Part shown: piece after piece, positions 22,940 through 54,540 of the stretch
How positions within the stretch are numbered: the first letter of the stretch is position 1
Layout of the letters: each line of letters starts with the position of its first letter
Source: Candidatus Peribacteraceae bacterium
GTDB taxonomy: Bacteria; Patescibacteriota; Gracilibacteria; Peribacterales; Peribacteraceae
Reading direction: 5' to 3'
Assembly: GCA_028711445.1 (NCBI GenBank)
Contig: JAQTSD010000002.1
Span: forward strand, 27,044-91,043
DNA length: 64,000 bases
Made by a program: the position numbers and the translations under genes
Notes under the pieces: model-generated
Seen by the model: only the letters and a program-made list of their open reading frames with translations
Told to the model about the DNA's origin: nothing
Database searches by the model: none

Positions 22940-23736
22940 TTCCCACGGCCATCATCGGTGCGGGCAATATGGGCTCTGCCTTATATAAAGGTCTTGCTTC
23001 CCAAGGAAAAACCGACCGGATCTGGTTATGCGATCAGCACGCGGAGAAGCTTACGATTGCTTCCATGGATCGCAGGATCAATCATCCGGCAGATGCCGGG
23101 AAAGTCGCGGAATGCATCCTGCTGGCGGTCAAGCCTCAGTCCTTCTCTACTCTGATGACGACTGTCGGCAATGCCTGGGCCGGCACATTGGTGATTTCCA
23201 TCATGGCAGGTGTCACGATGAAAACGGTGGTAGATGCCACAGGTGCCTCCGCTGTTGTGCGTGCTATGCCCAATCTCGGAGCGCGTGTCGGGCGCAGTAT
23301 CACGGGGTGGCATCCGTCGCCCGCAGTCACCCCCGTTCAGATGGAACATGTCGAAGAACTGTTCTCCTCCATCGGTATGACAGTGCGGCTCGCGGAGGAA
23401 TCGCAGATGGATGGATTCACGGCGGTAGCCGGCTCGGGACCTGCCTATGTCTTTCTTCTCGCCGAATTACTCGAGAACGCCGCGCGGGAGCTTGGGGTCG
23501 ATGAGGCGACGAGCGCGCGGATTGCGCGGGATCTCCTTGGAGCAGGGAGTCTCTTGCTCGACGGGAAGGAGCGCAGCGCTCTCGAGTGGCAGGAAGCGGT
23601 TGCATCCAAAGGCGGCACCACCGAAGCGGCGTTACACGTGATGCAGGAAAAAGGTTTGCCTGCGATCTTCCACGATGCAATTGCTGCAGCCGCGGAGCGC
23701 TCCCGTTCCCTTTCTCGTGATGACAAGTCTCACTGA
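22936..23736 (+). CDS. proC: pyrroline-5-carboxylate reductase
   Basis: IIGAGNMGSALYKGL...LLAVKPQ...RAMPNLGARVG...VAGSGPAYVFLLAELL...SKGGTTEAAL. ATGA overlap with the proB stop. Confidence 0.9.
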   Translation: MIPTAIIGAGNMGSALYKGLASQGKTDRIWLCDQHAEKLTIASMDRRINHPADAGKVAECILLAVKPQSFSTLMTTVGNAWAGTLVISIMAGVTMKTVVDATGASAVVRAMPNLGARVGRSITGWHPSPAVTPVQMEHVEELFSSIGMTVRLAEESQMDGFTAVAGSGPAYVFLLAELLENAARELGVDEATSARIARDLLGAGSLLLDGKERSALEWQEAVASKGGTTEAALHVMQEKGLPAIFHDAIAAAAERSRSLSRDDKSH

Positions 23737-24970
23737 ATATCTACAGGCAACCAAGCAGGCCAGCAGGGTCCTCGCGGAAGTTTCCGAGGAGCAGATTGAG
23801 CTGCTTCTGCGCCAGTCGGCGGATGCACTCGAGCGCGACGCGGAAGTAATTTTGGCAGCCAACAAGCTGGATCTCGCCCGCATGGCTCCGGAAGATCCCA
23901 CGTTTGATCGACTCCTTCTCAATCGCGAGCGTATCCATGCCATTGCCAATGATGTCCGCGCGGTTGCCGGCCTTCCCTCGCCTGTCGGGAAAATACTCGA
24001 AGAGCGTACGAGGCCGAACGGCCTGAAGATTTCGAAGGTTGCCACCCCCATCGGAGTGATCGGCATCATCTACGAAGCGCGGCCGAACGTGACGATTGAT
24101 TCATTCTCGTTGTGCTTCAAGTCGCGCAATGCCTGCGTTCTAAAAGGAGGAAGCGATGCCTCATTCTCCAATGAAGCCCTCGCCGACTGCATTCATCGGG
24201 TACTCCGTGAGGCATCCATTCCCCAGGAGACGCTCCTTCTATTCCCTTCCAACCGCACTGCCGTAGGCGAAATGCTCCATGCCCGGGGATTCATCGACGT
24301 GGTTATTCCCCGGGGCAGTCAGAAACTCATCGACTTCGTGCGCGAAGAGGCGACGATCCCCGTCATCGAGACTGGGGCGGGCAGCGTGCACATTTATGTC
24401 GACAAATCGGCGGATGTCTCTATCGCGGCTTCCGTCATCTTCAACGCCAAAACGCGTCGTCCCAGCGTCTGCAACACCGTCGATACTGTTCTCATCCACG
24501 AGAGTCGTCTCGGCGATCTGCCGCAGATCGGCGAGCCACTCGCAGCGGCGCGTGTCCGTATCTTTGCGGACCAGTCCGCTTTCGATCACTTGCGCGGGTC
24601 CTACGATTCCTCATTACTGGAGTCGGCGAAAGAGGAGCATTTCGGAACGGAATTTCTCTCGTTGAAGCTTTCGATTGCAACCGTACAGAGCATCGATGAG
24701 GCGCTCGTGCACATTCAGCGGCATTCCTCCGGCCATAGCGAGTCCATCATTGCGAAGGATCAGGAGGCGATCGAGCGTTTCCTCCGCGAAGTCGACGCCG
24801 CCGCCGTGTATGCGAATGTTTCCACCGCGTTCACCGACGGAGCGCAGTTCGGCCTCGGCGCCGAGATCGGCATCTCGACGCAGAAGCTTCACGCGCGCGG
24901 TCCCATGGGCCTCGAGGCGCTCACGAGTTACAAATGGATCGTAAGGGGGAATGGACAAGTGAGACCGTAG
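23720..24970 (+). CDS. proA: glutamate-5-semialdehyde dehydrogenase (gamma-glutamyl phosphate reductase)
   Basis: PIGVIGIIYEARPNVTIDSFSLCFKSRNACVLKGGSDA...VIPRGSQKLI...CNTVDTVLIH...HSESII...VYANVSTAFTDG. Overlaps the proC 3' end. Confidence 0.92.
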   Translation: MTSLTEYLQATKQASRVLAEVSEEQIELLLRQSADALERDAEVILAANKLDLARMAPEDPTFDRLLLNRERIHAIANDVRAVAGLPSPVGKILEERTRPNGLKISKVATPIGVIGIIYEARPNVTIDSFSLCFKSRNACVLKGGSDASFSNEALADCIHRVLREASIPQETLLLFPSNRTAVGEMLHARGFIDVVIPRGSQKLIDFVREEATIPVIETGAGSVHIYVDKSADVSIAASVIFNAKTRRPSVCNTVDTVLIHESRLGDLPQIGEPLAAARVRIFADQSAFDHLRGSYDSSLLESAKEEHFGTEFLSLKLSIATVQSIDEALVHIQRHSSGHSESIIAKDQEAIERFLREVDAAAVYANVSTAFTDGAQFGLGAEIGISTQKLHARGPMGLEALTSYKWIVRGNGQVRP

Positions 24971-25032
24971 AGTTCTTCGATTGTCTCCTTCTCCGTCCAA
25001 GCTTAAGATAACTTTGTTTTCTTTCCTTCGTT

Positions 25033-26463
25033 ATGCCCCGACTTGCCGATCCAAAGAAAGACTTCTCGCAGTGGTACCTCGATGTCATCGAGCAGGCGGA
25101 TCTTGCAGAGAATGCCGATGTGCGCGGTTGCATCATTTTCAAGCCCTACGGCTATGCCATTTGGGAAGCGATGCAACGGGACATCGATCGTCGTATCAAG
25201 GAGCTTGGAGTGTCGAATGCCTATTTCCCGCTTTTCATTCCCGAGTCACTCCTTATGAAGGAGGCAAATCATGTCGAGGGATTCGCTCCGCAGTGCGCGG
25301 TGGTGACGCATGGGGGTGGGAAGGAACTTACCGAAAAACTCTACGTACGTCCCACGAGTGAGACGATCATCTATTCGGCGTATGCCCGTTGGGTTCACTC
25401 GCATCGGGATCTTCCCATCAAGCTGAATCAATGGGCGAACATCGTGCGCTGGGAGATGCGTACGCGGCCGTTTTTGCGAACGCTCGAGTTCCTGTGGCAG
25501 GAGGGACACACCTGTCACGCGACCAAGGAGGAGGCGGATACAATGACCGAAGCAGCGTTGCAGATGTATACGGCGTTCGATCGCGAGATGCTTGCGCTCC
25601 CGGTATTAACCGGTCGCAAGCCGGAACACGAGAAGTTTGCCGGTGCCCTGTATACCATGACGACGGAAGCGCTTGCCCGCGACGGGAAGGCGATCCAGGC
25701 AGGGACGTCGCACAATCTCGGTCAAGGATTTTCGGAAGCGTACAACGTTTCTTTCCTCGATGCGGCTGGGAAGTCGCAGCGCCCCTGGATGACGAGTTGG
25801 GGAGTTTCCACCAGGCTCATTGGCACACTTATCGTGGTGCACGGAGATGAGAAGGGTCTGCGTATTCCGCCCTCTCTTGCTCCAACGCAAATCGTATTCG
25901 TCCCGATCTATAAGTCGGATGAGGAGCGTGCTGCCGTGCTCGAAATGTGCCACAAAATCAAGAAACAATTATCTGACTTCCGTGTGTTCGTCGACGATCG
26001 AACCGAGAAATCTCCGGGTTTCAAGTTCAACGAGTGGGAAGTGAAGGGGGTTCCCGTACGTCTCGAAATCGGCCCGAAGGATCTGAAGGATGGTCAGGTG
26101 ACGGTTGTGCGACGGGACACATCCGTCAAAGAGACCTTGCCGCTCGCACAGTGCACTCCTGCTATCTTTGAAAAATTGCTCCAGTCAATTCAGACCGGCT
26201 TGTTTACACAAGCGCAACGTTTCCTTGATGACCACACGTTTGAAGCGAAGTCGTATGAGGCGCTCAGGGAACATATCGATGGCGATGGCGGATTCGTATG
26301 GGCGCCATGGGATGGTGAACTGGCCACGGCCGAAAAGATCCAAAGCGAGGTCAAGGCGTCGATTCGTCTGCTCGATCTCAATCCAAAGAAAGTCAAAGGA
26401 CGCAAAGATATCCTTTCCGGTGTCCCAGCCCAGAGCATGGCTCTCTATGCGAAGGCTTATTGA
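25033..26463 (+). CDS. proS: proline--tRNA ligase (archaeal/eukaryote-like short form)
   Basis: DFSQWYLDVIEQADLAE...RGCIIFKPYGYAIWE...FPLFIPE...RPTSETIIY...WANIVRWEMRTRPFLRTLEFLWQEGHT...GTSHNLGQ...WGVSTRLIG. 476 aa with no editing insertion. Confidence 0.93.
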   Translation: MPRLADPKKDFSQWYLDVIEQADLAENADVRGCIIFKPYGYAIWEAMQRDIDRRIKELGVSNAYFPLFIPESLLMKEANHVEGFAPQCAVVTHGGGKELTEKLYVRPTSETIIYSAYARWVHSHRDLPIKLNQWANIVRWEMRTRPFLRTLEFLWQEGHTCHATKEEADTMTEAALQMYTAFDREMLALPVLTGRKPEHEKFAGALYTMTTEALARDGKAIQAGTSHNLGQGFSEAYNVSFLDAAGKSQRPWMTSWGVSTRLIGTLIVVHGDEKGLRIPPSLAPTQIVFVPIYKSDEERAAVLEMCHKIKKQLSDFRVFVDDRTEKSPGFKFNEWEVKGVPVRLEIGPKDLKDGQVTVVRRDTSVKETLPLAQCTPAIFEKLLQSIQTGLFTQAQRFLDDHTFEAKSYEALREHIDGDGGFVWAPWDGELATAEKIQSEVKASIRLLDLNPKKVKGRKDILSGVPAQSMALYAKAY

Positions 26464-26532: not shown

Positions 26533-26988
26533 ATGAAAAAATTCTCCCTCCTCTTAGGAGCCCTCGGCGGTGCGATGGCCGGGTACCTTTTCAGCAACAA
26601 GAAACTCCGTGACGAGCTGGCAAATGCCACAGATGCGGAGATGGCGGCGAAGACGCTCGGCAAACATCTTCAGCGCGACGGTCGGACGCTGGCAAATCAG
26701 GTGCAGAAGTTCGTCGAGAGTGATGAGGTGCAGACGCACTGGAAAACGATGAAGGGTTTTGCCTTGAGGAAGGTCCGGCAGGCGAAGAAAGAGGTGCAGC
26801 ATTATTTCGGAGAAGAGGCAGATGCGGTTTGCAGGACGGCAGGAGATGCTATGGCACGTGCGAAGGGTATGGCAACAAAAGGAGAGAAGGGGATGAAACG
26901 CGCCGCCCAGAAAGTTGGAAGGAAAGCGGCAAAGGCTGCGAAGAAGGTTGTGCGTGGCGTGCAGGCGAATATCCGAAAGCTTACATAA
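26533..26988 (+). CDS. YtxH-like domain protein
   Basis: MKKFSLLLGALGGAMAGYLFSNKKLRDEL, followed by Lys/Ala-rich helices. The ATG at 26533 lies inside ORF 26488..26988. Confidence 0.6.
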   Translation: MKKFSLLLGALGGAMAGYLFSNKKLRDELANATDAEMAAKTLGKHLQRDGRTLANQVQKFVESDEVQTHWKTMKGFALRKVRQAKKEVQHYFGEEADAVCRTAGDAMARAKGMATKGEKGMKRAAQKVGRKAAKAAKKVVRGVQANIRKLT

Positions 26989-27149: not shown

Positions 27150-27611
27150 ATGAAGAAAATCTTCCTCTCATCCATGTCTGTTGCGTTGGCTATGGCACTT
27201 ATCGCTCCGGCGTTCGCAGCGACGACGGATGTCACCAATGTCTCCGGTGCTCGGCAATACTTCTTCACCCAAAGGCCTTCGCGCCGTGCGGTACGCGATG
27301 CGAATTTGACGCGCAATGTGCTGAAGGAGGCCAAAGAGAAGAAGCCCGCTGCCGCGAGTGCGGGGCAGAATGCACTGGCCAAGCTCCAGCGCGCTCGCAC
27401 TGTTCGCGTCAAGAATAACGTTGCGAAGCCCGGGACCGGTACCTATAGGATTCTGAACAGGGTTGTTCCGATGACGCGCGTGATGCCCCGGGAGTCCGCA
27501 TTGCCAGCAACAATTGTTCAGACAGGCTTCTCCGTTGACCACCCGTCCGTGCGTGACGTACAACGTGCGGCTGCACAACAGGCAGCGACGATGTTGAAGT
27601 TTGTGAAGTGA
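27150..27611 (+). CDS. hypothetical secreted protein
   Basis: MKKIFLSSMSVALAMALIAPAFAATT is a clear signal peptide (AFA-A cleavage site). The upstream part of track ORF 26829..27611 overlaps the ytxH-like gene and is rejected. Confidence 0.5.
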   Translation: MKKIFLSSMSVALAMALIAPAFAATTDVTNVSGARQYFFTQRPSRRAVRDANLTRNVLKEAKEKKPAAASAGQNALAKLQRARTVRVKNNVAKPGTGTYRILNRVVPMTRVMPRESALPATIVQTGFSVDHPSVRDVQRAAAQQAATMLKFVK

Positions 27612-27681
27612 TCGAAAAAGCAAAGTATCTTCCTTCGTACTTTGTACGTCGGAAGACAGAGAGAAATTACATTGATTAAAG

Positions 27682-27714
27682 AATCAGAGGAACAAAGGTT
27701 CCTCTGATTTTTTT
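27682..27714 (+). terminator. rho-independent terminator
   Basis: Perfect 12-bp stem AATCAGAGGAAC-AAAG-GTTCCTCTGATT, followed by a T-run. Confidence 0.8.
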
Positions 27715-27818
27715 CCTCCTCCGATCATTCGCTACTTGTCCATAGCGCAGTGAAAAGGAAATGGGAAACCGTCGAATGTTCTTCTACAATTCCTCAGATC
27801 TTCATCCCCCCATTTTTT

Positions 27819-29897
27819 ATGAGTGCACTCGCCGCTTCCATCTTTCCATTTTCGCATACGCTCTCCAATGTGCTCCTCGTTGTTCTGCTGACGGGTATCC
27901 TCGCACTCGTTTCTGCGATGAGCTTCCGGATCGCTGTGGGAATGCGAGGCGTGGGAACGCAGAAGATGCAGGATGTGGCACTGGCGGAGCGCAACAATGT
28001 GACCACTCTCCTTGGGCGCGTTCGTTGGTTCGTTATTCTCCTTTCGCTTCTATTCGTCTGTTGTCTCTATGCAATGATGGACGGTGGATGGGGTGTCGTT
28101 GCAGGCGGGGCATGGCCACTTCCCATGATTGCGGGAAGTTTCCTCTTCGGGGTGATCGTGGCACTCGTGGGAGTATCCTATGCGGCTCGCGCAGCACATA
28201 CGGCACAGATGCACACGGCACAAGCAGCGCGTGTCGGTCTCACGGAGGCTCTGCGCACGGCATTTCTTGGCGGGTCGATCACCGGATTCGTAGTTGTGGG
28301 GAGCGTTGTCGTCGGCATGGCGTTCCTCCTCCTTCTCCTCATGGAATTTCTTGGCATGCCGCTGAATGATGTCGGGGGTTCAATGGTGGCATTCGTTGCA
28401 GGTGCGTCGATTGTGACACTGGTCATCCGGCTTGCAGGCGGAGCGTTCCTCCAGGGGGCTAGTTTGGCAGGTGCAGATACAAGAGGGGCGGCGGGGGATG
28501 CCGCTCGCACATCGGTGGCGGGCGCCCTGCTCGCAGGTGACACCGTGGTTGAAGTCGTTGGCGGTGCAATGGATCTGTTGCAGAGTATGCTCTTCGTTCT
28601 CGTTACTGCTTTCCTCGTCGGATCATCCATGCCCGGAGAGAGTGTTCCGGAACAGGCGGCGGTACTGCCTTTTGCTGTCATCGGTCTAAGCATCATTTCG
28701 AGCATTTTCGGTACGTTCGTGGTGCGGACGAAACGTGGGGATCGCAATGTACAGGCCGTTCTCAAAAACAGCCTCTTCTTTGCGGCGACACTCCTGCTCA
28801 TCGGGTCATTCTTCCTCTGCCACGGTTTGCTGGCGACCGATATGTTCCTTGGGATCTATGTCGCCACCATCACAGGTCTCGTCATTGGTATTGTCTTCTC
28901 TATGGCAGCAGAGTACGCCACGTCCGAATATTTTGCTCCTGTACGTCGTCTTGCAGCCGGCTATAAAGATGGACTCGTCTCAGCTACGTTCTCGGGGGTG
29001 GCGCTCGGCACGCGTTTTGTCTGTCTGCTCACGGTACTTCTCATCATGAACGTCCTCATTGCCTTCATTGCCGGGGGATTCTTCGGTGTTACCATGAGTA
29101 TGGTAGGAATGATCTCTCTCCTTGGGGTGCAATTGGCGATTGACGCAAGCTGTTGCGCAATGAGACATGCGGGAACAATCGCAGAGTCTTCCGATCTTCC
29201 CAAACAGGTGTGTGCACGGACGAATGTCCTGCGGGGGGCGGGCGATACGCTTGCTGCGGCCGGAAGAGTTTCCATGGTGGGGATCGGCATCTTAAGCGGT
29301 GTCCTCCTGCTCATCTCCTTCAGCGGTGCCGCGAGTTTCGACGCCGCAAATGCGGCGACGACTCTTGTCGTGATCTGCCTACTTCTCGGTGCCGCAGCAT
29401 CGTTTGCCGTCCTGAGTGCGCTGTTGCGTGCAGGTCGGACGGTTGCCCGTGGGTGGCTTTCCCGGTCGCAGATGCCGCGCGCTCCCGCACAAAGCGTAGA
29501 TGATGGCATACGCGTTGTTCGGAAGGTGGCATCTGGAGCCGTCTGGAGGACAGGATTCCCTCTTTTCCTCATGGCCGTGTTCCTCCCCATCATTCTCGGC
29601 ATGTTTGCAGGGTCGCAGGCACTCGGTGCGTTCCTTTTAGGCTTCCTCATTTCCTCCGGGGGTCTCGCGTTGGCCATGATCGTGAGCGGCGGAGCGTTTC
29701 GCAATGCATTAAGACATGTCGAAGAGGGGAACGATGGAGGCGAGGGGAGCGTTGCATATCGCTCGGCACTTATTACCGATGCCCTCGGTGTATCACTGGG
29801 CACCGCCGTCGCTCCGACGCTCATCGTATTCCTCAAAACGATGTTGATCGTCTCCCTCCTCTTCCTCACCTTCTTCACCGGCGGGGGGATGCTGTAG
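27819..29897 (+). CDS. membrane-bound pyrophosphatase (H+/Na+-PPase) homologue with degenerate catalytic motifs
   Basis: Clear collinearity with M-PPases: KMQDVA..., ARVGLTEALRTAFLGGSITGFVVVG, RLAGGAFLQGASLAGADTRG, GDTVVEVVGGAMDLLQS, GGAFRNALRHVEEG...GEGS, TDALGVSLGTAVAPTL..LKTM. Most conserved Asp/Lys/Glu residues are substituted (see findings). Confidence 0.75.
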   Translation: MSALAASIFPFSHTLSNVLLVVLLTGILALVSAMSFRIAVGMRGVGTQKMQDVALAERNNVTTLLGRVRWFVILLSLLFVCCLYAMMDGGWGVVAGGAWPLPMIAGSFLFGVIVALVGVSYAARAAHTAQMHTAQAARVGLTEALRTAFLGGSITGFVVVGSVVVGMAFLLLLLMEFLGMPLNDVGGSMVAFVAGASIVTLVIRLAGGAFLQGASLAGADTRGAAGDAARTSVAGALLAGDTVVEVVGGAMDLLQSMLFVLVTAFLVGSSMPGESVPEQAAVLPFAVIGLSIISSIFGTFVVRTKRGDRNVQAVLKNSLFFAATLLLIGSFFLCHGLLATDMFLGIYVATITGLVIGIVFSMAAEYATSEYFAPVRRLAAGYKDGLVSATFSGVALGTRFVCLLTVLLIMNVLIAFIAGGFFGVTMSMVGMISLLGVQLAIDASCCAMRHAGTIAESSDLPKQVCARTNVLRGAGDTLAAAGRVSMVGIGILSGVLLLISFSGAASFDAANAATTLVVICLLLGAAASFAVLSALLRAGRTVARGWLSRSQMPRAPAQSVDDGIRVVRKVASGAVWRTGFPLFLMAVFLPIILGMFAGSQALGAFLLGFLISSGGLALAMIVSGGAFRNALRHVEEGNDGGEGSVAYRSALITDALGVSLGTAVAPTLIVFLKTMLIVSLLFLTFFTGGGML

Positions 29898-29907
29898 TAC
29901 AATCTTT

Positions 29908-31326
29908 TTACGTGATCACCTTGTAGCAGGGGTCGTACTCCCCCTCGAGTTTCATCCGTTTCTCTGCGACGAAGCGCTCCAGGAGGATGCTGACCTCTCG
30001 CATGATCTCGGCATCTCCCCGCAGTTCGTAGGGGCCGTTCTTTTGTATGCTCTTCACGCCGTCGTCTGTGACATTTCCATAGACGATAGCAGAGAAGAGG
30101 CGTCGTAGCTGCGCACAGAGTACGTAGGGTGACTGGTTGCGGTGAATTTCGAGCTTACTCACGTTTTCGTGCGTAGGATGGAACGGTTGCTGTACCTCTT
30201 CGGGCAGGTACAGACTGCGGTACCATAGCTCCTGGTCGTCGTGTGCTGCCCGGCAATTCTTCGCCCGCTCGATGGCGGCCATCATATGCTGTGCAACGCG
30301 CTCAGGATCGTTGATGATGATCTCATAAAGCGGCCCGGGAGTTGTTCGGATAGCATCTCGTCCGACTGTCTTCATGATAAAACTGTCGATTGCCTCGAAG
30401 TAGTCGCGTGACGATTCTGGTCCCGTGAGAATAACGGGGTAGACTTGATCGCGATTCTCCTCGTGCAGGAGCATCGAGAGAATCATCTGGATCTCCTCGG
30501 CGGTTCCCGGCCCGCCTGGGAAGATGATACATCCCATCGAGGCACGGATGAACGCTTCGAGGCGCTTCTCGATGTCTGGGAGGATGACGAGTGGTTTCAC
30601 GAAGAGGTTCGGCGGTTCGGAGGTGATGATGCCCGGACAGTTGAAGCCGAACATGCGGGCGTTGGTGATGCGTTCAGCTGCGTAGGCTGCCGCCGCTCCG
30701 CTGAACGATGAGCGCATTATTCCTTGGCCGCCACCAGAGATGAACTCGCAGAAGCGTTCGGCCAGTCGCGTGCATACTGTTTTTCCGTACTTGTATGTTG
30801 TATCCGAGATTGCGTGACCACCGAAGCAGGTGATGCGCGTGAGCTCGTAACGGGCGCGCTCTACGAGCTTGAGGGGATCGGCGACCGGTGGGATGCGCTG
30901 GAAGACACTTGCATGATCGAGGATGCGGAAAACTGCGTCGGTGATCTCGTGTGGACTCTGTGGTTTGCCAATCGCTCGTGCATGGAAGATGAGGTCGATG
31001 GCGGCGGAACAGAGGTGTTCGCGCATCGACTCGTGAATTCTTTGCCCATCAATGAAGGCAGTCAGCGGGCCGTTCTCGAGGATGAATTTGATGCTCCCAC
31101 GCGTCCGGGCGATGGTCACGTTGAAAGTCGGGTAGCGTTCCAGAAGCTCCGTCGTGCTGTCACTATCCGTTCCTGCGTGGAGGATTCCGAGGCAGCAACG
31201 TCGTAATGTCTCGTGGTGTCCGTTCCCCACACTTGTGAGATACTGAATATCCTCCTCAGGAAGGTAGGAGAGACGCTGGTCCAGCGCGTCCACCTCCATC
31301 TGCCGGAATGTGTGGAATTGTTCCAT
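29908..31326 (-). CDS. ppnN: nucleotide 5'-monophosphate nucleosidase PpnN-like (LOG family with flanking domains)
   Basis: 472 aa. Central LOG motifs SGGGQGIM and FPGGPGTAEEI, plus the long N- and C-terminal extensions typical of PpnN/YgdH. Confidence 0.8.
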   Translation of the reverse strand: MEQFHTFRQMEVDALDQRLSYLPEEDIQYLTSVGNGHHETLRRCCLGILHAGTDSDSTTELLERYPTFNVTIARTRGSIKFILENGPLTAFIDGQRIHESMREHLCSAAIDLIFHARAIGKPQSPHEITDAVFRILDHASVFQRIPPVADPLKLVERARYELTRITCFGGHAISDTTYKYGKTVCTRLAERFCEFISGGGQGIMRSSFSGAAAAYAAERITNARMFGFNCPGIITSEPPNLFVKPLVILPDIEKRLEAFIRASMGCIIFPGGPGTAEEIQMILSMLLHEENRDQVYPVILTGPESSRDYFEAIDSFIMKTVGRDAIRTTPGPLYEIIINDPERVAQHMMAAIERAKNCRAAHDDQELWYRSLYLPEEVQQPFHPTHENVSKLEIHRNQSPYVLCAQLRRLFSAIVYGNVTDDGVKSIQKNGPYELRGDAEIMREVSILLERFVAEKRMKLEGEYDPCYKVIT

Positions 31327-31378: not shown

Positions 31379-33120
<1,742 letters not shown>

Positions 33121-46419: not shown

Positions 46420-48108
46420 ATGGCGAAGCGGACTCCTGACCATGAACCGGGCCAACCCAAGAAGAAGAAATTTGGACCTCATCTGCGTTTGGAGGCTCTC
46501 CTTGCGAAGGAGTGCACTATCGAAACGAGCAGGCTTTCTGAGTGCAATCAGCTCGATATTTGGAGACACCAGAGAGAACGACTGATTTGTGACTTGGCAT
46601 TCATTGGTCTCGATCAGGGCGACCATTCCGAAATAACAGTTGCCGATCTTCATGATCGCGAAGAACTCATTGAGGCTCTTCTGGATCTTGTCCATAGAAA
46701 CCGTTTCAACCCCGATGAAAGCAATGATGTGTTGGGGATGGATCGCCATGCAATCGAGTGTGAGTGCGGTATCAAGTTCGGGAAAAGGTTCTGGTCAATG
46801 CGAGAGCCATTCATCGAGAACTGGCAAGGACGGTACCGTCCTGATGCGGCGCGGCGCGAACTATTGAAACGCGTGATCGAGGAGGAGAAGCAAACGGAAG
46901 AGAAAGATCAATGGCCGCTGGAAGACCGTGTATGGGACTGGGCACAGTGGTACTTCCGCGGTGGATGCCCGCGAGAGGTGGAAGTTCCGGAGGATCAAGA
47001 TCCCGAAGAAGTTCTTCGCATACTTGATCGGGATTGTGCATTCATCGAGCAGCTCTCTTTATCAGAGTCTGATTGCGGAGAGGCGATTCGATCATTGATA
47101 ATTCAATTTCTCAGTGGCGAATACCCGATTGTCACCAGCGAAGAGGATCCTGTATCTGAGGAGGCCATGCTCGGAGTCGCCGAAAGGATTGCACGGGCTC
47201 CGGATGCAGCTTTCCTTGGCGAAGGTCTTCGTGGTATTGCAGTTTCAAATGTGATGAAGCGGTATCGGGAGTATCTTGCACAGGGTCTCAGTTTCGAAGC
47301 GGAAGAGGCGAAAAGAGGAGAGGAGCAGCAGGCAGAGGATCGCATGCTTCTTCTCAGTCGCGAACGAGCGCAGAGAGAATATGATGTCGAATCTGCTTTT
47401 CTACAGAGTTTGAATCTTCCCGATTATGAGGCGCAGCAATGGCCGGAATTACTTCGGTGTGCTCTTTTACGTGGTGCAATACATATCGATCCAGCCTACC
47501 GTGAACGCGTTCATGGCCATGTGCGATGTTTCATCGGGAGAATGCCATGGCCCAAAGAGGAGCTCCCGGGAGCCGATCCATGGGGTCCATTAGGGCAAAT
47601 GCTGGCGAGCTATTGGCATGGTCATTACTACCCCGACAACTTACGGTGGAGGATTCTCCAGGAAGAATGTGCGAAGCTTCCACCGGGTTTTTCTGAAAGA
47701 AGGGGCGGGCTCTCGTCCATTGTTTCTACCTATCTATTACATGTCATGTTTATGGAAGGGTGTGCGAACGATGGTGCCAAGGTTGGTGCTTCTCAGGATC
47801 CGGAGATGCTCGAAATGGCCTATGCAAATGATATGCAACTCATTCGCAATCTCGGACTTCCGGATGACCTCTTCCGGGAAGCGGAATGGGGATATAACGA
47901 ATGGCTGCTTGGGGGGAATTTTATGCTCGCCGCCGATCGCGAATTGCCGGAGGATAGGGATAAACTTGCGAGACGACTGGCTGCTCGTCTGGAGGAGAGT
48001 GGAGGAGATCCTGCACAAGTCAGTTCATACTTCGTGAGCCAGATCCTTCAGGAGTTTTGTGAACATTGGCTCGCAGTTTCCAAGCGTCCAGCGCCTAGGA
48101 AGGAATGA
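46420..48108 (+). CDS. hypothetical acidic protein (562 aa)
   Basis: Long uninterrupted ORF behind a near-consensus promoter. It is rich in Glu/Asp/Trp/Cys, has no TM segment, and I recognise no family. Confidence 0.6.
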   Translation: MAKRTPDHEPGQPKKKKFGPHLRLEALLAKECTIETSRLSECNQLDIWRHQRERLICDLAFIGLDQGDHSEITVADLHDREELIEALLDLVHRNRFNPDESNDVLGMDRHAIECECGIKFGKRFWSMREPFIENWQGRYRPDAARRELLKRVIEEEKQTEEKDQWPLEDRVWDWAQWYFRGGCPREVEVPEDQDPEEVLRILDRDCAFIEQLSLSESDCGEAIRSLIIQFLSGEYPIVTSEEDPVSEEAMLGVAERIARAPDAAFLGEGLRGIAVSNVMKRYREYLAQGLSFEAEEAKRGEEQQAEDRMLLLSRERAQREYDVESAFLQSLNLPDYEAQQWPELLRCALLRGAIHIDPAYRERVHGHVRCFIGRMPWPKEELPGADPWGPLGQMLASYWHGHYYPDNLRWRILQEECAKLPPGFSERRGGLSSIVSTYLLHVMFMEGCANDGAKVGASQDPEMLEMAYANDMQLIRNLGLPDDLFREAEWGYNEWLLGGNFMLAADRELPEDRDKLARRLAARLEESGGDPAQVSSYFVSQILQEFCEHWLAVSKRPAPRKE

Positions 48109-48235
48109 CCAAGGCAATAATTCGTAGAGGCAATAAGCTCTGCCACTAGTGGTTCGCGACGGAATTTCCTCTATACTATGCGATGTGTCATCCTGAGCCT
48201 GTCGAAGGGTCGACACACCGTTGTTCTTTGAGCTA

Positions 48236-48310
48236 GGCCCTATCGTCTAATGGTTAGGACATCAGGTTTTCAGCCTGAGAATCGGGGTTCGATTCCCCGT
48301 GGGGCTGCCA
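48236..48310 (+). tRNA. tRNA-Glu (anticodon UUC)
   Basis: Manual cloverleaf fold. Acceptor stem GGCCCTA/TGGGGCT (two G-T wobbles), D arm GTCT/GGAC, and anticodon stem TCAGG/CCTGA with loop TTTTCAG (anticodon TTC). T arm CGGGG-TTCGATT-CCCCG, with an encoded CCA. Confidence 0.9.
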
Positions 48311-48460
48311 TTCTGCGTCGCAAGCTATGCAGAATGGCAGGGGGGTGGTCTGCGAAGCTCTCTGCTTTGCGTAGCTTCGCAGCGCAAAGCGCGGAGTATG
48401 ACCTTGGAGTTGCTGGAATAAATATTCCGGTTGATCAGCTATAACGCTATAGTCTGAAGC

Positions 48461-51400
48461 ATGTCTAGTGATTTGATGGAAGATCCCATTCTAAACTCGC
48501 CCTACAATGAGCCGAGCAGACATTTTGGTGCTGACGAGAGAGGTCTGACGCAAGAAGTAGTAGAGAGTCGCCGTCCAAGTAGTTTCTACATTCCAGTCCC
48601 GAAAGCAAAGACGAAGCAGAAGCAACTCGACTTACATCTTGCCGAGGGTGCCTTCGGGAGTGAGTTGCAAAAAGAGAATGAATTTATTAACAAGGTCAGA
48701 GCGAAGATAAAGGAGTGGCGAGCGATCGGTTACTCAGGAATCACCAAGGCCTCGCGCGATCTGCTTATGTATTGGAAAGATGAATCGAGAGATAACAAAT
48801 TATTCTATTGCCAAATCGAAGCATTAGAAACATTGATGTACATCAATGAAGTCGCGGAGAAGTCTGGGGACAGTTGGATTATCAATGAACTCAAGAAAGC
48901 AAATGCAGACGCCAATCCTGGTCTGTATCGATTGGCTTTCAAAATGGCTACAGGATCGGGCAAGACTGTTGTCATGGCAATGATCATTGCCTATCACACA
49001 CTGAATAAAATCCGCTATCCGCAGGACACGCGTTTCACAGATGCATTCGTCATTGTGACGCCGGGCATCACGATTCGTGATCGTCTCAATGTTCTTCATC
49101 CAAATGATCCACAGAACTACTACCGCTTACGCAACATTGTTTCCTATCAAGACCTAGAACTCTTACAACAGGCCACGGTTCACATAACAAATTTCCATCA
49201 GCTAGAACAACGACAGAACCAACGTTTTCAGGTGGGAGGTGTATTGAAAGCCGCCAAGCTGCTTAAGGAGGAGGCAATGAAAGAAACCCCCAGTGCGATG
49301 GTGAATCGTGCATTTAAGAGTGTTCTCTCCAAATCGCGTGTGCTCGTGATAAACGATGAGGCTCATCACTGTTACCGCGAGAAACCCAGTGAACAGAAAC
49401 TCTCAGGTGAAGAGCGGAAGGAGGCTGATGAGAATAACAAGGCAGCGCGGGTCTGGATCAGTGGATTGGAAGCACTAGCGCAAAAGATCAATATCAATGC
49501 GGTTATTGATCTCTCTGCCACACCGTACTTCCTCAGTGGTTCTGGTTACGCCGAGGGCACATTATTTCCATGGACTACGTTCGATTTCTCCCTGTTGGAT
49601 GCTCTTGAATGTGGAGTTGTGAAGATCCCACGCCTTCCCATCGAATCAGACACCATCTCGATTGATGATGAGCCAGAATTTCGTAATCTGTGGCTCCACG
49701 TTCGCGATAATTTGCCAAAAAAAGGATTGAAAACTGGAAACTACGATCTCTCTGTACTTATCCTTCCAACGAAGCTACAAGAGGCATTGGAGTCCCTCTA
49801 TGGAAACTATGAGAAGTATCATCGGGAGTATGAGAAACAGAAAAAAGGAAATCCTGCGGTGATGCCACCGGTGATGATTGTCGTATGTAATAACACGACA
49901 GTCTCAGAGCTTCTGTACCGCTGGATTGCAGGATATGAGAGGGAGACTGCAAGTGGTCAGATTAAGATTGAGAAAGGTAATCTCGAAATATTCCGAAACG
50001 AAGATGGCGTTCGTTTCTTTGATCGGCCTAGCACCCTCCTCATAGATAGTGCCCAGATTGAGAGTGGAGAGAAGATTAGTGATGAATTCAAAAAGATCTT
50101 CACCAAAGAGATCGCTGATTTCCATAAGGAATACCACAAACGTTTTCCGGGTCGTGAAGATCCAACCGATGAAGAGCTCTTGCGTGAGGTGATGAATACC
50201 GTAGGTAAACCGGGGAAGCTTGGAGAAAACATCAAGTGTGTTGTTTCAGTATCCATGCTTACCGAGGGATGGGATGTGAATACTGTCACTCACGTTCTCG
50301 GCGTTCGCGCATTCTCAACACAGCTCCTTTGTGAACAGGTCGTGGGCCGCGCTTTGAGACGAGTGGATTACAGCGTTGATGACTCAACAGGGCTTCTTTC
50401 TCCTGAGTACGCAGAGGTATATGGGGTGCCATTTAGCTTCCTGAAAGCAACGGGGCCCACGCCACCACAGCCGCCGAAGGTAATCCACAGAGTACGTTCT
50501 CTTCCTGAGCGAGAGGATCAGTACCAAATTACCTTTCCACGTGTTGAAGGGTATCGATATGAACTTAACGAAACCAAGCTCTCTGCTCACTTCACCGAGG
50601 AATCAAAAACCATTATTGAGAATGAACCTACTGAAGTGACCTTAGGTGGTCTCATTGGCAAAGAGGAAAAAGAGATGCTCGAAAAAATTAAAGAGCGCCG
50701 TGAGGGAGAGGTCATCATTCGATTGGTACAGAGTCTGCTAAAACGTTATTACACAGATGCAGATGGCAGTGAAAAGTATTGGCTGACACCAAAATTGATG
50801 AAGATTACTGAGGAATATGTGAAGCACCATGTCATCCTGAAAGACCGCATGGTAATTGGTTATCTCTCCGTCGGAGCGTATTTCTCTGGTGCACTCACAA
50901 AGATTCAACAGGCTATTGTGACGGATAATTTAGAGAGCCAAAAAGACAGGAAGGTACTGCCGATTCTGGCCCCTTACGACACTCTTGGATCAACGCGTTA
51001 TGTAGATTATCTGACAACGAAAGAGGTTCGCGAAACGGTGAAGAGTCACATCAATTATGTGGTCGCTGATACGCAAGAGTGGGAGCAGGGGGTTGCGAAG
51101 AAGCTGGAACAGATGCCAGAGGTTCTAGCCTATGTAAAAAACCAGAATTTGGGCTTCACCATTCCCTATGAACATCAGGGCGCAGCTCATCAATATATTC
51201 CCGACTTCATAGCTGTCCTGAAATTGCCTGATGGAAGTAAGTTGAATTTGCTCATCGAAGTAACAGGGAAAAAAGACGACAAGAAGGCGACGAAGATCAA
51301 GACGGCCCGTGAGCTTTGGGTACCTGCGGTCAATAACAATGGGAAATTTGGAGTTTGGGCAGTGATTGAAATCCAAGACATCCATGAGACACAGAATCTC

Positions 51401-51463
51401 ATTCGTGCCGGTATGGCGAGAGGGTTTGACCATATCGTTCCCGATAGTTTGTTTACCAAATAA
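48461..51463 (+). CDS. res: type III restriction enzyme, Res subunit (SF2 helicase plus PD-ExK nuclease)
   Basis: Walker A MATGSGKTVVMA, DEAH box INDEAHHCY, motif VI QVVGRALRR, and a C-terminal nuclease core YIPDFIAV...LLIEVTGKK. Confidence 0.88.
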   Translation: MSSDLMEDPILNSPYNEPSRHFGADERGLTQEVVESRRPSSFYIPVPKAKTKQKQLDLHLAEGAFGSELQKENEFINKVRAKIKEWRAIGYSGITKASRDLLMYWKDESRDNKLFYCQIEALETLMYINEVAEKSGDSWIINELKKANADANPGLYRLAFKMATGSGKTVVMAMIIAYHTLNKIRYPQDTRFTDAFVIVTPGITIRDRLNVLHPNDPQNYYRLRNIVSYQDLELLQQATVHITNFHQLEQRQNQRFQVGGVLKAAKLLKEEAMKETPSAMVNRAFKSVLSKSRVLVINDEAHHCYREKPSEQKLSGEERKEADENNKAARVWISGLEALAQKININAVIDLSATPYFLSGSGYAEGTLFPWTTFDFSLLDALECGVVKIPRLPIESDTISIDDEPEFRNLWLHVRDNLPKKGLKTGNYDLSVLILPTKLQEALESLYGNYEKYHREYEKQKKGNPAVMPPVMIVVCNNTTVSELLYRWIAGYERETASGQIKIEKGNLEIFRNEDGVRFFDRPSTLLIDSAQIESGEKISDEFKKIFTKEIADFHKEYHKRFPGREDPTDEELLREVMNTVGKPGKLGENIKCVVSVSMLTEGWDVNTVTHVLGVRAFSTQLLCEQVVGRALRRVDYSVDDSTGLLSPEYAEVYGVPFSFLKATGPTPPQPPKVIHRVRSLPEREDQYQITFPRVEGYRYELNETKLSAHFTEESKTIIENEPTEVTLGGLIGKEEKEMLEKIKERREGEVIIRLVQSLLKRYYTDADGSEKYWLTPKLMKITEEYVKHHVILKDRMVIGYLSVGAYFSGALTKIQQAIVTDNLESQKDRKVLPILAPYDTLGSTRYVDYLTTKEVRETVKSHINYVVADTQEWEQGVAKKLEQMPEVLAYVKNQNLGFTIPYEHQGAAHQYIPDFIAVLKLPDGSKLNLLIEVTGKKDDKKATKIKTARELWVPAVNNNGKFGVWAVIEIQDIHETQNLIRAGMARGFDHIVPDSLFTK

Positions 51464-53946: not shown

Positions 53947-53982
53947 TACCCAACTTCTTTATCATATTATGAAACCAAAAAT

Positions 53983-54540
53983 ATGAAAGCTAATCCCTCC
54001 GAGCAGCCATCCATTCATCTCTGTAAACAATGTGGCAGAATTCCTAAAACAAATGAGGATCCCACATTTGTTAACTATAGCTGGAAAGTCTGGGATAAGT
54101 CTCGGGATCGAGGAAGAATCTGCGAATGCGAACACTGTGAACAGCGATTCTTGGAATACGATATTTCAGCAGACTTCTACGGTCCAAAGGCATTTGAAGT
54201 GAGCATAGAAGGTACTGATTGGATTCCCATTACAAAGCAGGAAGTGGATATCCTCAGATCGAACGATGCGGGATGGTGGTACATTAAAAAACTCGTAACT
54301 ACCAGAAGTCATCTCTATAGAGAAAATGGTCGGTATTTTTGGCACAAACTAAAAAAACAAACAAAAGCGAAGGATTTAGCTGATAGCATGCTACGTGCTC
54401 TGAAAGAAGTTAACGAACGATCTATGCGAAAGGGTGGGGGTTGGGTACCACAGTGGGATGAAATGAACGGGAATGAACGTAGGGAATATCTGAAGTTTCT
54501 TGAAGAAAAAACTCGTCATTCCTCAGACAGAGAAGAATGA
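53983..54540 (+). CDS. hypothetical Zn-ribbon protein
   Basis: 185 aa. CKQCG...CECEHC provides four Cys ligands. Basic C-terminal half. Lies in the low-GC island. Confidence 0.5.
   Translation: MKANPSEQPSIHLCKQCGRIPKTNEDPTFVNYSWKVWDKSRDRGRICECEHCEQRFLEYDISADFYGPKAFEVSIEGTDWIPITKQEVDILRSNDAGWWYIKKLVTTRSHLYRENGRYFWHKLKKQTKAKDLADSMLRALKEVNERSMRKGGGWVPQWDEMNGNERREYLKFLEEKTRHSSDREE

What the first reader, a model, noticed from the sequence alone, without database searches (positions are those of the whole stretch)
27819..29897. Membrane pyrophosphatase homologue with most catalytic acidic/basic residues replaced
The protein is unmistakably collinear with H+/Na+-PPases, but the signature motifs are degenerate. 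GGG(I/L)(F/Y)TKAADVGADLVGKVE reads AGGAFLQGASLAGADTRGAAG. DDPRNPAxIADNVGDNVGD reads GDAARTSVAGALLAGDTVVEVVGG. GADLFES reads AMDLLQS. GGAWDNAKKYIE reads GGAFRNALRHVE. GDTVGDPFKDTxGP reads TDALGVSLGTAVAP. The lost residues are the Asp, Lys and Glu that coordinate Mg-PPi and form the coupling funnel in M-PPase structures. The ORF remains intact (692 aa, ~16 TM), so it is not an obvious pseudogene. It is a candidate pseudo-enzyme, or a transporter or channel derived from an M-PPase scaffold.
Basis: partly seen in the sequence, partly recalled or inferred. Interest (0 to 1): 0.62.

Follow-up and report, generated by a model that had tools for sequence, protein, structure and literature searches.

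The report
Catalytically dead membrane pyrophosphatase orthologue
This groundwater CPR bacterium keeps an intact copy of its lineage's original pyrophosphate-driven ion pump that has lost almost every residue needed to split pyrophosphate, and relatives show the same decay wherever a second pump of another subtype is present.

Summary
ORF 27819-29897 (+, 692 aa) matches the M-PPase family end to end (PF03030, 258 bits). Its AlphaFold model has the 16-helix pump fold (pTM 0.88; TM-score 0.85-0.91 to Thermotoga and Vigna pumps). It keeps only 3 of 20 hydrolytic-centre residues.

The genome carries a fully canonical M-PPase elsewhere (contig C9, K+-independent signature, 20/20 residues, "type B").

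The window gene is the positional orthologue of the K+-dependent-type pump ("type A"). Type A is the only M-PPase in about 80 sister genomes of the same Peribacteria-like family and lies there in the same gene order.

All five genomes with a dead A copy (8, 4, 3, 2 and 2 of 20 residues) also hold an intact type B (Fisher p about 2e-7). The tree shows at least three independent degenerations.

The gene is not a pseudogene. dN/dS is 0.16 against its sister species, both indels are in frame, and about 26 stop-creating changes would be expected under neutrality. What survives is mostly Gly/Ala/Pro packing residues.

Best reading: a pseudoenzyme left by paralogue displacement and kept for a non-catalytic membrane role that remains unknown. 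I found no published description of dead M-PPases.

The parts
27819..29897 (+). Degenerate M-PPase-like gene (692 aa, 16 TM helices): the dead orthologue of the family's type A (K+-dependent-type, NF001960-like) membrane pyrophosphatase
   Evidence: PF03030 257.6 bits over the full length. 3/20 hydrolytic residues kept. AF2 pTM 0.88. Foldseek TM-score 0.85-0.91 to Tm and Vr PPases. dN/dS 0.159.
28428..28586 (+). Residues 204-256, helices 5-6: remnant of the GGG-x-TKAADVGADLVGK / DDPRNP / DNVGDNVGD / GADLFES motifs
   Evidence: Tm K199->Q, D202->gap, D206->S, K210->A, E217->G, D219->A, D228->L, N233->T, E246->Q. Kept: R204, D227, R230, D241, E245 (for D236), D252, S256.
29142..29267 (+). Residues 442-483, helices 11-12: remnant of the DAYGPIADNAGG...RTDxLDAxGNTTAAxGKG motifs
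   Evidence: Tm D465->R449, N466->H450, D488->R472, N492->D476, K499->R483. Ala kept at the K+/Lys signature position (A479).
29682..29837 (+). Residues 622-673, helices 15-16: remnant of the GGAWDNAKK / GDTVGDPFKDT motifs, plus the gate lysine
   Evidence: Tm D660->R628, K663->L631, K664->R632, D692->V658, K695->G661, D696->T662, D703->I669. Kept: N629, E635, D654, K673.
27678..27713 (+). Strong hairpin followed by a U-run between the upstream small gene and the PPase-like gene (terminator-like)
   Evidence: 16-bp stem, dG -21.4 kcal/mol, z -4.97 against shuffles. The consensus terminator scan did not list it.
27150..27611 (+). Small secreted, Arg-rich protein ('SecSmall', about 153 aa, signal peptide, Y-R-I/T-L and LPxxIVxTG motifs); ancestral upstream neighbour of the type A pump
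   Evidence: No Pfam hit. Aligned across 12 loci. Same position next to canonical and degenerate A copies. Also present in some genomes without any A copy.
26533..26988 (+). Small protein with one N-terminal TM helix (MKKFSLLLGALGGAMAGYLFSN...; I call it 'YtxH-like' from memory only); ancestral neighbour
   Evidence: No Pfam hit. 50-65% identical over 90 aa in all 16 genomes tested, including type-B-only genomes. Conserved position.
25033..26463 (+). Prolyl-tRNA synthetase, upstream anchor of the conserved gene order
   Evidence: Pfam tRNA-synt_2b, HGTP_anticodon, ProRS-C_1; synteny.
29908..31326 (-). PpnN-type nucleotide 5'-monophosphate nucleosidase, downstream neighbour
   Evidence: Pfam PpnN_C, Lysine_decarbox, DUF4478. 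Present beside the pump gene in some but not all related loci.
31441..33120 (+). CTP synthase (pyrG), downstream anchor of the conserved gene order
   Evidence: Pfam CTP_synth_N 383 bits, GATase; synteny.

Best explanation
The gene encodes a pseudoenzyme. It is the catalytically dead positional orthologue of the K+-dependent-type membrane pyrophosphatase ('type A', NF001960-like) that is the only M-PPase in most genomes of this Peribacteria-like family.

In this genus a second M-PPase is encoded on another contig ('type B', NF001953-like, Lys at the K+ signature position, 20/20 catalytic residues). No family I soluble PPase is present, so type B is probably the cell's working PPi-driven pump. 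That step is inferred.

Shown: the old copy lost 17 of 20 Mg/PPi-binding residues, one of the two nucleophile-holding aspartates (the other is now Glu) and the gate glutamate. By everything known about M-PPase mechanism it therefore cannot bind Mg-PPi or hydrolyse it.

Shown: it keeps the 16-helix fold, an intact reading frame and purifying selection at the level of neighbouring housekeeping-adjacent genes. What is conserved across dead copies is almost only Gly/Ala/Pro helix-packing positions.

Inferred: it is retained as a folded, non-catalytic membrane protein. Among specific roles, I rank a structural or regulatory role first, possibly as a dead protomer next to the active pump. A PPi-independent cation leak or channel through the partly kept gate (R204, D252, S256, K673) comes second. 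Neither is demonstrated.
For: Homology and fold: PF03030 end to end; AF2 pLDDT 86.5, pTM 0.88; Foldseek TM-score 0.85-0.91, E 1e-28 to Tm and Vr M-PPases.

Dead site: 12 of 42 invariant polar residues kept; 3/20 hydrolytic residues kept; below all NCBIfam equivalog cut-offs.

Coexisting canonical copy: G000:C9, 841.5 bits, 20/20. No PF00719 hit in the genome.

Orthology by position: canonical type A genes in 12 sister loci lie in the same order, ProRS, small TM protein, SecSmall, pump, (PpnN), PyrG. The dead copies P0039, P0054, P0040, P0041 and P0042 share it.

Phylogeny: the degenerate sequences nest inside the type A clade (UFboot 100). G239 (8/20) is sister to its congener G241 (20/20) with UFboot 100 and branch lengths 0.42 against 0.06.

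Association: all 5 genomes with a dead A (8/20 or fewer) hold a full-length type B, against 1 of 82 others; Fisher p 1.6e-7.

Selection: dN/dS 0.159 against the sister species, with dS 0.65. In the same genome pair type B gives 0.068, PyrG 0.045, PpnN 0.10 and SecSmall 0.159. Both indels are in frame. About 26 stop-creating substitutions are expected if neutral, so P(no stop) is about 5e-12.

What is kept: of 283 positions invariant in type A, 48 survive in at least 6 of 7 dead copies. These are 20 Gly, 9 Ala, 3 Pro, 0 of 17 Asp and 0 of 9 Asn. Catalytic residues are lost preferentially: in G239, 12/20 against 40/263 other invariants (p 2e-5); in the query, 17/20 against 143/263 (p 0.009).
Against: No polar residue newly conserved across the dead copies points to a new active site. 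Only S->A and G->A switches were found.

Gate residues decay in other dead copies. That argues against a shared ion-conducting role.

Many sister genomes with type B have deleted type A cleanly, with no remnant. The protein is therefore dispensable in those backgrounds, and the dead copies could be a long-lived intermediate on the way to loss.

dN/dS is 2-5 times that of the canonical pumps.

Two intact M-PPases can coexist elsewhere (G237, two A-lineage copies; G063). Redundancy alone therefore does not force decay.

The direction of events is not resolved. Type B may have been acquired, or may be ancestral with differential loss.
Confidence: 0.78

Rival explanations
1. Slowly decaying relic. 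After the second pump made it redundant, the gene is simply on its way to deletion. The residual constraint only reflects selection against a misfolding or toxic membrane protein, not a positive function.
For: About 78 sister genomes have type B only, and those examined show a clean deletion of type A. The dead copies form a graded series of 18, 14, 8, 4, 3 and 2 of 20 residues. Branches are very long. No new conserved polar site was found. dN/dS is raised 2-5 fold over the canonical pumps. The reciprocal case G173 has an intact A plus a type B fragment lacking the catalytic GGIYTKAADVGADLVG segment.
Against: dN/dS is 0.16 over dS 0.65. No stop appears where about 26 are expected, and both indels are in frame. 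Every dead copy fetched, from at least five genera and several metagenomes, is a full-length open frame despite 1-2.5 substitutions per site. Deletion is evidently easy in this family, so toxicity avoidance alone does not explain retention.
Confidence: 0.13
2. PPi-independent ion channel or secondary transporter. The hydrolytic centre was neutralised, but the inner-ring pathway and gate are reused for passive or differently gated cation movement.
For: In this genus the gate residues R204, D252, S256 and K673 survive while 17/20 upstream residues are replaced. The cavity remains polar, with charges roughly balanced rather than strongly acidic (my reading of the sequence). The fold is intact.
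Against: The gate Glu (Tm E246) is Gln and Tm D703 is Ile. Other dead copies lose D6.50 and/or K16.50 (P0041, P0040, P0054). In canonical pumps, substrate-driven helix movements open the gate (PMC5150537 abstract), and no substitute trigger is visible here.
Confidence: 0.15
3. Dead protomer. The protein heterodimerises with the active type B pump and modulates its half-of-the-sites cycle, as prozyme-type pseudoenzymes do.
For: M-PPases are dimers with strong subunit cooperation, and only one subunit binds PPi at physiological levels (PMC9408878). Dead A copies occur only where type B is present.
Against: The query is only about 24-26% identical to type B. Retention of canonical residues is lowest (0.25) over Tm positions 520-600; I place helix 13 of the dimer interface there from memory, not from a tool result. 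Most type B genomes manage without it.
Confidence: 0.1
4. It is still a working pyrophosphatase or pump that uses a shifted or unconventional set of residues.
For: D241, E245 and D654 remain. Several Arg residues sit at former Mg-ligand positions (R449, R472, R628) and could in principle contact an anion.
Against: Three alignment methods and the structure-level match give the same register. All three PPi-contacting lysines (Tm K199, K663, K695) and most Mg ligands are gone. All mPPases absolutely require Mg2+ (PMC9408878). The substitutions differ between dead lineages.
Confidence: 0.03
5. Artefact: a chimeric bin or misassembly puts a foreign degenerate gene next to a canonical one.
For: The genome is a 45-contig MAG, and the two genes are on different contigs.
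Against: Completeness is 99.7% and contamination 0.46%. The sister-species orthologue is found on 24 independent contigs from several samples, with identical gene order. The same A-plus-B pairing is seen in five further genomes. The flanking genes are typical of the family.
Confidence: 0.01

Closest known systems
K+-dependent Na+-translocating M-PPase of Thermotoga maritima (PDB 4AV3, 5LZQ, 8B21) and NCBIfam NF001960-type bacterial pumps
   Same: Collinear over the whole length. Same 16-helix fold (TM-score 0.85-0.88). Ala at the K+ signature position. Best NCBIfam model is NF001960. Canonical members of this subtype occupy the same locus in sister genomes.
   Different: 23-24% identity. 17 of 20 hydrolytic-centre residues replaced, the gate Glu is Gln, and the score is below the family cut-off. 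PPi hydrolysis is not expected.
Vigna radiata H+-PPase (PDB 4A01, 5GPJ)
   Same: Same fold (TM-score up to 0.91). The counterparts of R242, D294 and K742 of the proton path are kept.
   Different: K250, D253, D257, D507, D691, K694, D727, K730 and D731 are all replaced.
K+-independent H+-PPases (Pyrobaculum aerophilum, PDB 8B37; NF001953-type), that is, the co-resident 'type B' gene
   Same: Same family and fold. It is the paralogue that presumably does the work in this cell.
   Different: Type B has Lys at the K+ signature and 20/20 catalytic residues. It is only about 24-26% identical to the window protein.
Membrane-embedded pseudoenzymes such as iRhoms and Derlins (dead rhomboid proteases), and prozyme-type dead paralogues (T. 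brucei AdoMetDC prozyme, PMC5201418)
   Same: An enzyme fold retained under selection after loss of catalytic residues, with a live paralogue present (analogy from general knowledge; PMC5201418 abstract).
   Different: No partner, client or regulatory activity is known here, and the fold is unrelated.
Other catalytically dead M-PPase homologues noted earlier in this scan (bacterial, Thermoplasmata and Naegleria cases) and independent degenerate lineages among metagenomic representatives
   Same: Full-length M-PPase fold with the Asp/Lys motifs stripped.
   Different: These are separate origins. Only the present case has a graded series within one family, a fixed locus and a clear link to a second paralogue.

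Membership tests
Membrane-bound pyrophosphatase (M-PPase; Pfam PF03030, EC 7.1.3.1/7.1.3.2) | Sequence homology over the whole 16-TM domain | tested here: met
   PF03030 257.6 bits, profile positions 1-645 of 645; phmmer to 4av3 E 6e-37.
Membrane-bound pyrophosphatase (M-PPase; Pfam PF03030, EC 7.1.3.1/7.1.3.2) | 16-helix fold with the inner ring of helices 5, 6, 11, 12, 15 and 16 | tested here: met
   AF2 pTM 0.88, 16 long helices; Foldseek TM-score 0.85-0.91 to 36 M-PPase chains, with the next hit at TM-score 0.17.
Membrane-bound pyrophosphatase (M-PPase; Pfam PF03030, EC 7.1.3.1/7.1.3.2) | Mg2+/PPi-binding Asp, Lys, Glu and Asn residues of the hydrolytic centre (20-residue set, Tm numbering K199...D696) | tested here: not met
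   3/20 identical (D227, D241, D654). All 20 are present in 15 type A and 8 type B pumps of the same family.
Membrane-bound pyrophosphatase (M-PPase; Pfam PF03030, EC 7.1.3.1/7.1.3.2) | Pair of aspartates holding the nucleophilic water (Tm D236 and D696) | tested here: not met
   D236->E245 (conservative) and D696->T662.
Membrane-bound pyrophosphatase (M-PPase; Pfam PF03030, EC 7.1.3.1/7.1.3.2) | Ionic gate (Tm D243, E246, S247, K707; D/N703) | tested here: inconclusive
   D252, S256 and K673 are kept; E246->Q255 and position 703->I669. The gate is partly intact in this genus and decays in other dead copies.
Membrane-bound pyrophosphatase (M-PPase; Pfam PF03030, EC 7.1.3.1/7.1.3.2) | Score above a curated NCBIfam equivalog cut-off | tested here: not met
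   Best is NF001960, 270.5 bits against a cut-off of 546. All 12 models listed are below their cut-offs.
Membrane-bound pyrophosphatase (M-PPase; Pfam PF03030, EC 7.1.3.1/7.1.3.2) | PPi hydrolysis coupled to H+/Na+ transport | not testable with these tools
   Needs expression and assay.
Pseudoenzyme (catalytically dead homologue retained by selection) | Clear descent from an active enzyme family, with active orthologues or paralogues identified | tested here: met
   It nests inside the canonical type A clade (UFboot 100) and shares its locus. An active-looking paralogue is in the same genome.
Pseudoenzyme (catalytically dead homologue retained by selection) | Loss of residues indispensable for catalysis | tested here: met
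Pseudoenzyme (catalytically dead homologue retained by selection) | Purifying selection and an intact frame (not a pseudogene) | tested here: met
   dN/dS 0.159, in-frame indels; P(no stop under neutrality) about 5e-12.
Pseudoenzyme (catalytically dead homologue retained by selection) | Evidence that the protein is made and has a non-catalytic activity | not testable with these tools
SecSmall does not co-vary with the gene.

The most novel reading that the evidence does not exclude
The M-PPase scaffold has acquired a PPi-hydrolysis-independent function in this genus. One possibility is a gated cation pathway using the surviving R204, D252, S256 and K673 gate. The other is a metal-free anion or PPi-binding sensor in which arginines now sit at three former Mg2+-ligand positions (R449, R472, R628). 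That would echo the known trick by which a Lys side chain replaces K+ in K+-independent pumps. Either would be the first non-pump activity for a fold that reviews describe as having no homologues among known ion pumps.
Probability: 0.15. Interest if true: 0.8.

Novelty: new variant of a known kind. Interest (0 to 1): 0.62.

Why it matters
M-PPases are treated as a family made up only of active PPi-driven H+/Na+ pumps, with no homologues among other ion pumps (PMC9408878). I found no paper describing a catalytically dead member.

This locus offers more than a single oddity. It provides a natural series within one bacterial family and one fixed locus, running from 20 through 18, 14, 8, 4 and 3 to 2 of 20 catalytic residues. 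The decay is tied to the presence of a second pump subtype.

- **For evolution:** it is a clean case of paralogue displacement producing a membrane pseudoenzyme, repeated at least three times.
- **For mechanism:** these proteins separate what the M-PPase fold needs (Gly/Ala/Pro packing) from what pumping needs. They are ready-made "dead" scaffolds for testing passive conductance and subunit cross-talk.
- **For annotation:** a copy with only 8/20 catalytic residues still passes the NCBIfam cut-off for "sodium-translocating pyrophosphatase". Metabolic reconstructions of CPR genomes can therefore over-count pumps.

Tried and rejected
1. **Shifted-register rescue of the catalytic residues: rejected.** phmmer, MAFFT, hmmalign and the fold match all give the same register.

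2. **Neighbours imply a new nucleotide-linked function: rejected.** The same gene order surrounds fully canonical type A pumps, so the synteny with pyrG, pyrD, PpnN and dCMP deaminase is ancestral.

3. **The two conserved upstream small proteins are obligate partners of the dead protein: not supported.** The small TM protein is present in all 16 genomes tested, including type-B-only ones. SecSmall is detectable in several genomes without any A copy. SecSmall evolves fast, so absences are uninformative.

4. **Remnants of type A in type-B-only genomes: none found.** tblastn found none between the small TM gene and pyrG in five loci.

5. **A low PF03030 score always means a dead copy: false.** G063's second copy scores 462 bits but has 19/20 residues. 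G185 scores 716 bits and has 18/20.

6. **dN/dS on the young G239-G241 pair: uninformative.** dS is saturated.

8. **Context of other degenerate lineages (P0160, P0112, P0070): nothing learned.** The contigs were too short to say whether a live copy coexists.

9. **The first literature query was too loose and returned irrelevant papers.**

10. **The consensus terminator scan missed the hairpin at 27678-27713.** Folding confirmed it.
Full report
**The object.** The window carries an open frame at 27819-29897 on the + strand (692 aa from the ATG; an in-frame GTG at 27750 would add 23 residues). It matches Pfam H_PPase over the entire profile (positions 1-645 of 645) but with only 257.6 bits. It falls far below every NCBIfam M-PPase equivalog cut-off; the best is NF001960 at 270 bits against a cut-off of 546. 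The closest solved structures by sequence are the Thermotoga maritima Na+-PPase (4av3, E 6e-37) and the Vigna radiata H+-PPase. An AlphaFold2 model built on 31 sequences has mean pLDDT 86.5 and pTM 0.88, with 16 long helices. Foldseek places it on 36 M-PPase chains with TM-scores of 0.81-0.91, and the next hit has TM-score 0.17.

**The catalytic residues.** I rebuilt the TmPPase sequence from the HMMER alignment and checked the offset to the published numbering: chain position minus 9 puts K199, D202 and D206 on the right letters. In a MAFFT alignment with six canonical enzymes, 42 polar or charged positions are invariant, and the window protein keeps 12.

- Lost: K199Q, D202 (gap), D206S, K210A, E217G, D219A, D228L, N233T, D465R, N466H, D488R, N492D, D660R, K663L, D692V, K695G and D696T.
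- Kept: R191 (R204), D218 (D227), R221 (R230), D232 (D241), D243 (D252), S247 (S256), N661 (N629), E667 (E635), D688 (D654) and K707 (K673).
- Conservative or gate changes: D236 is Glu (E245), and the gate Glu246 is Gln.

An independent hmmalign gives the same result, 3 of 20 residues of the hydrolytic-centre set. All mPPases absolutely require Mg2+, and their site holds five Mg2+ ions plus the substrate (PMC9408878). A site stripped in this way should therefore not bind or split Mg-PPi.

**It is not a pseudogene.** The closest relative (P0003, 82% identical, labelled hypothetical protein of Candidatus Peribacteria) occurs on 24 contigs from several groundwater samples, with the same neighbours. 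Against that orthologue, dN/dS is 0.159 with dS 0.65, and the only two indels are 3 and 6 bases long. In the same genome pair and locus the other values are:

| Gene | dN/dS |
|---|---|
| Degenerate PPase | 0.159 |
| SecSmall | 0.159 |
| Small TM protein | 0.125 |
| PpnN | 0.10 |
| Co-resident canonical pump (type B) | 0.068 |
| ProRS | 0.061 |
| PyrG | 0.045 |

Canonical type A pairs give 0.03-0.05, with one pair at 0.107 near saturation. If the gene drifted at the synonymous rate, about 26 stop-creating substitutions would be expected. The chance of seeing none is about 5e-12.

**A working pump coexists.** The assembly is 1.25 Mb in 45 contigs, 99.7% complete. It has a second PF03030 gene on contig C9 scoring 841.5 bits. 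That gene has 20/20 residues and Lys at the K+ signature position (GNTTK). It passes the cut-off of NF001953 (977 bits against 783). Ala versus Lys at this position separates K+-dependent from K+-independent enzymes (PMC9408878). No family I soluble PPase (PF00719) is found in the genome. I call this gene type B.

**Where the dead gene came from.** An exhaustive profile search of 1.84 billion representatives returned a set of relatives that score above canonical pumps and are themselves partly or mostly degenerate: P0039 to P0045, P0054 and P0058. These sit in the same gene order: ProRS, a small single-TM protein, a small secreted Arg-rich protein, the PPase-like gene, then CTP synthase and pyrD/pyrK, sometimes with PpnN or dCMP deaminase inserted. 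At first this looked like a link to pyrimidine metabolism.

Searching the 200 genomes of the same family changed that reading. Most genomes have a single M-PPase. It is either type A (canonical, PF03030 855-920 bits, Ala signature, NF001960 at 954 bits) or type B. The canonical type A genes lie in exactly this gene order. The window gene is therefore the positional orthologue of the family's type A pump, and the synteny is ancestral, not a clue to a new function.

**The pattern across genomes.** I obtained PF03030 scores for 87 genomes with an A-lineage gene and residue tables for a sample of them.

| Group | Genomes | A-copy residues kept (of 20) | Type B |
|---|---|---|---|
| Canonical type A | 80 (every one tabulated is 20/20) | 20 | None full-length |
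| Dead A copy | G239; G276 (= P0039); G000; G135 (= P0003); G297 (= P0054) | 8; 4; 3; 2; 2 | Full-length, 823-841 bits; the copies tabulated (G000, G135, G239) are 20/20 |
| Divergent but mostly intact | G185; G212 | 18; 14 | G185 has type B; none found in G212 (genome 80% complete) |

Dead A against presence of B gives Fisher p = 1.6e-7.

One genome shows the reverse. G173 has an intact type A plus a contig-end fragment of type B in which the segment GGIYTKAADVGADLVG is deleted in frame. In five type-B-only genomes, no remnant of type A lies between the small TM gene and pyrG. Two intact M-PPases can coexist in other combinations: G237 has two A-lineage copies, and G063 in another family has a 19/20 second copy. 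The rule is therefore specific to the A-plus-B pairing.

**Independent origins.** In an IQ-TREE analysis (LG+F+G4, 1000 ultrafast bootstraps), all degenerate sequences fall inside the family's type A clade (support 100).

- G239 (8/20) is sister to G241 (20/20) of the same genus, with support 100 and branch lengths 0.418 against 0.062.
- G185/P0044, P0127 and G212/P0058 group with G237a (support 100).
- The window gene groups with P0054, P0040, P0042, P0041 and P0039 on branches of 1-2.5 substitutions per site. Monophyly of this group is only weakly supported (62), and long-branch attraction is possible.

That makes at least three separate degenerations.

Type B copies from eight genera are 69-81% identical to one another, excluding the same-genus G000-G135 pair at 94%. 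This is about as diverged as type A. I therefore cannot say whether B was acquired several times or was ancestral and differentially lost.

**What selection still protects.** Of 283 positions invariant in 15 canonical type A proteins, 48 keep the same residue in at least six of seven dead copies. These include 20 Gly, 9 Ala, 4 Leu, 3 Pro and 3 Ser, but 0 of 17 Asp, 0 of 9 Asn, 1 of 9 Lys and 1 of 10 Glu. No polar residue is newly conserved; only one S-to-A and one G-to-A switch appear.

Catalytic residues are lost faster than other invariant positions. In the young G239 copy the figures are 12/20 against 40/263 (p = 2e-5). In the window protein they are 17/20 against 143/263 (p = 0.009). In G185, G212, P0058 and P0043 they are not lost preferentially, so those copies may still work.

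The picture is of a fold kept by packing constraints with its chemistry removed. By my count in the sequence, the former funnel went from strongly acidic to roughly charge-balanced, with Arg at three former Mg-ligand positions (R449, R472, R628). That would stabilise a metal-free cavity. This last point is inference.

**What it does now.** This is not shown. Three results are established: it cannot be a conventional PPase, it is folded like one, and it is under selection.

- My preferred reading is a non-catalytic membrane protein with a structural or regulatory role.
- A dead protomer pairing with type B is attractive because of the known subunit cooperation (PMC9408878). It is weakened by about 25% identity to type B and by poor conservation over Tm positions 520-600. 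I assign helix 13 of the dimer interface to that stretch from memory.
- A PPi-independent cation path is possible in this genus, because R204, D252, S256 and K673 survive. Against it, the gate Glu is Gln and other dead copies lose the gate.
- A long-lived relic with no positive function remains a real rival, given that many relatives simply deleted the gene.

**Transcription.** A strong hairpin with a U-run (27678-27713, -21.4 kcal/mol, z -5) separates the upstream small gene from this ORF. The gene therefore probably has its own transcription unit.

**Known or new.** Reviews of the family and of microbial PPases do not mention inactive members. The Peribacteria genome paper mentions only "an inorganic pyrophosphatase" (PMC4736985). 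Targeted searches found nothing.

Among the metagenomic representatives I saw further degenerate lineages at separate places in the tree: P0112/P0126/P0158, P0070/P0113/P0135, P0160/P0117, P0132, P0171 and P0122. Earlier notes of this scan report dead M-PPase homologues in another bacterium, a Thermoplasmata archaeon and Naegleria. Those notes are unchecked by me.

Dead M-PPases thus appear to be recurrent and undescribed. The present case stands out for its graded series in a fixed locus and its tie to a second paralogue.

**Limits.**
- All genomes are MAGs.
- Residue counts rest on alignments of very divergent sequences, although the motifs are unambiguous.
- Only a sample of the 80 canonical genomes was checked residue by residue; the rest are judged by PF03030 scores of 814 bits or more.
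- The tree has long branches.

Noticed in passing
window 26533-26988 and 27150-27611 (+): Two small genes without Pfam hits precede the pump gene across the family. One is a single-TM protein with a very conserved N-terminus (MKKxSLLLGALGGAMAGYLFSN). The other is a fast-evolving secreted Arg-rich protein with Y-R-I/T-L and LPxxIVxTG motifs. The first is present in all 16 genomes tested, usually within about 3 kb of whichever M-PPase the genome has.
   Followed up: partly
G000:C9:30447-32528 (L001) and type B genes in L035-L042: All eight type B pumps sampled have Gln where nearly all M-PPases have the Arg of helix 5 (Tm R191, Vr R242), yet keep 20/20 hydrolytic residues.
   Followed up: no
L043 (G173:C164:50-946, - strand): Reciprocal case: a genome with an intact type A pump carries a contig-end type B fragment with an in-frame deletion of the catalytic segment GGIYTKAADVGADLVG and a DD-to-DG change.
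   Followed up: partly
L024:5001-7106 (G239): A copy with only 8 of 20 catalytic residues still scores 754 bits on NF001960 (cut-off 546). It would therefore be auto-named 'sodium-translocating pyrophosphatase', which is an annotation hazard.
   Followed up: yes
L025:2005-4119 (G185, identical to P0044): This A-lineage copy keeps 18/20 residues but has Arg at both N492 and the K+ signature Ala495. It is possibly a convergent route to K+ independence in a still-active enzyme.
   Followed up: no
proteins P0112, P0126, P0158, P0070, P0113, P0135, P0160, P0117, P0132, P0171, P0122, P0127 (loci L046-L048 for three of them): Further M-PPase homologues with 2-12 of 20 catalytic residues fall at several separate places in the family tree. 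Catalytic death has therefore happened repeatedly outside this family.
   Followed up: partly
L049 (G063:C6:794-2914): A second M-PPase in another family of the class scores only 462 bits on PF03030 and is 33% identical to the main copy, yet keeps 19/20 catalytic residues. It is a very divergent but probably live paralogue.
   Followed up: partly
G011:C1:34919-36955 and G145:C3:191574-193616: The hppA genes of two genomes of the same class contain 14 and 28 in-frame TGA codons. This is consistent with TGA being read as a sense codon in those lineages.
   Followed up: no
window 48000-57000: G+C drops to 0.43-0.48, against about 0.55 in the rest of the window. This may be a foreign or otherwise distinct segment.
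   Followed up: no
window 23675-26463 versus L003:1-6681: The sister species has proB, two further ORFs and a second, divergent ProRS gene between the Aldedh (proA-like) gene and ProRS. In the window the Aldedh gene abuts the single ProRS.
   Followed up: no
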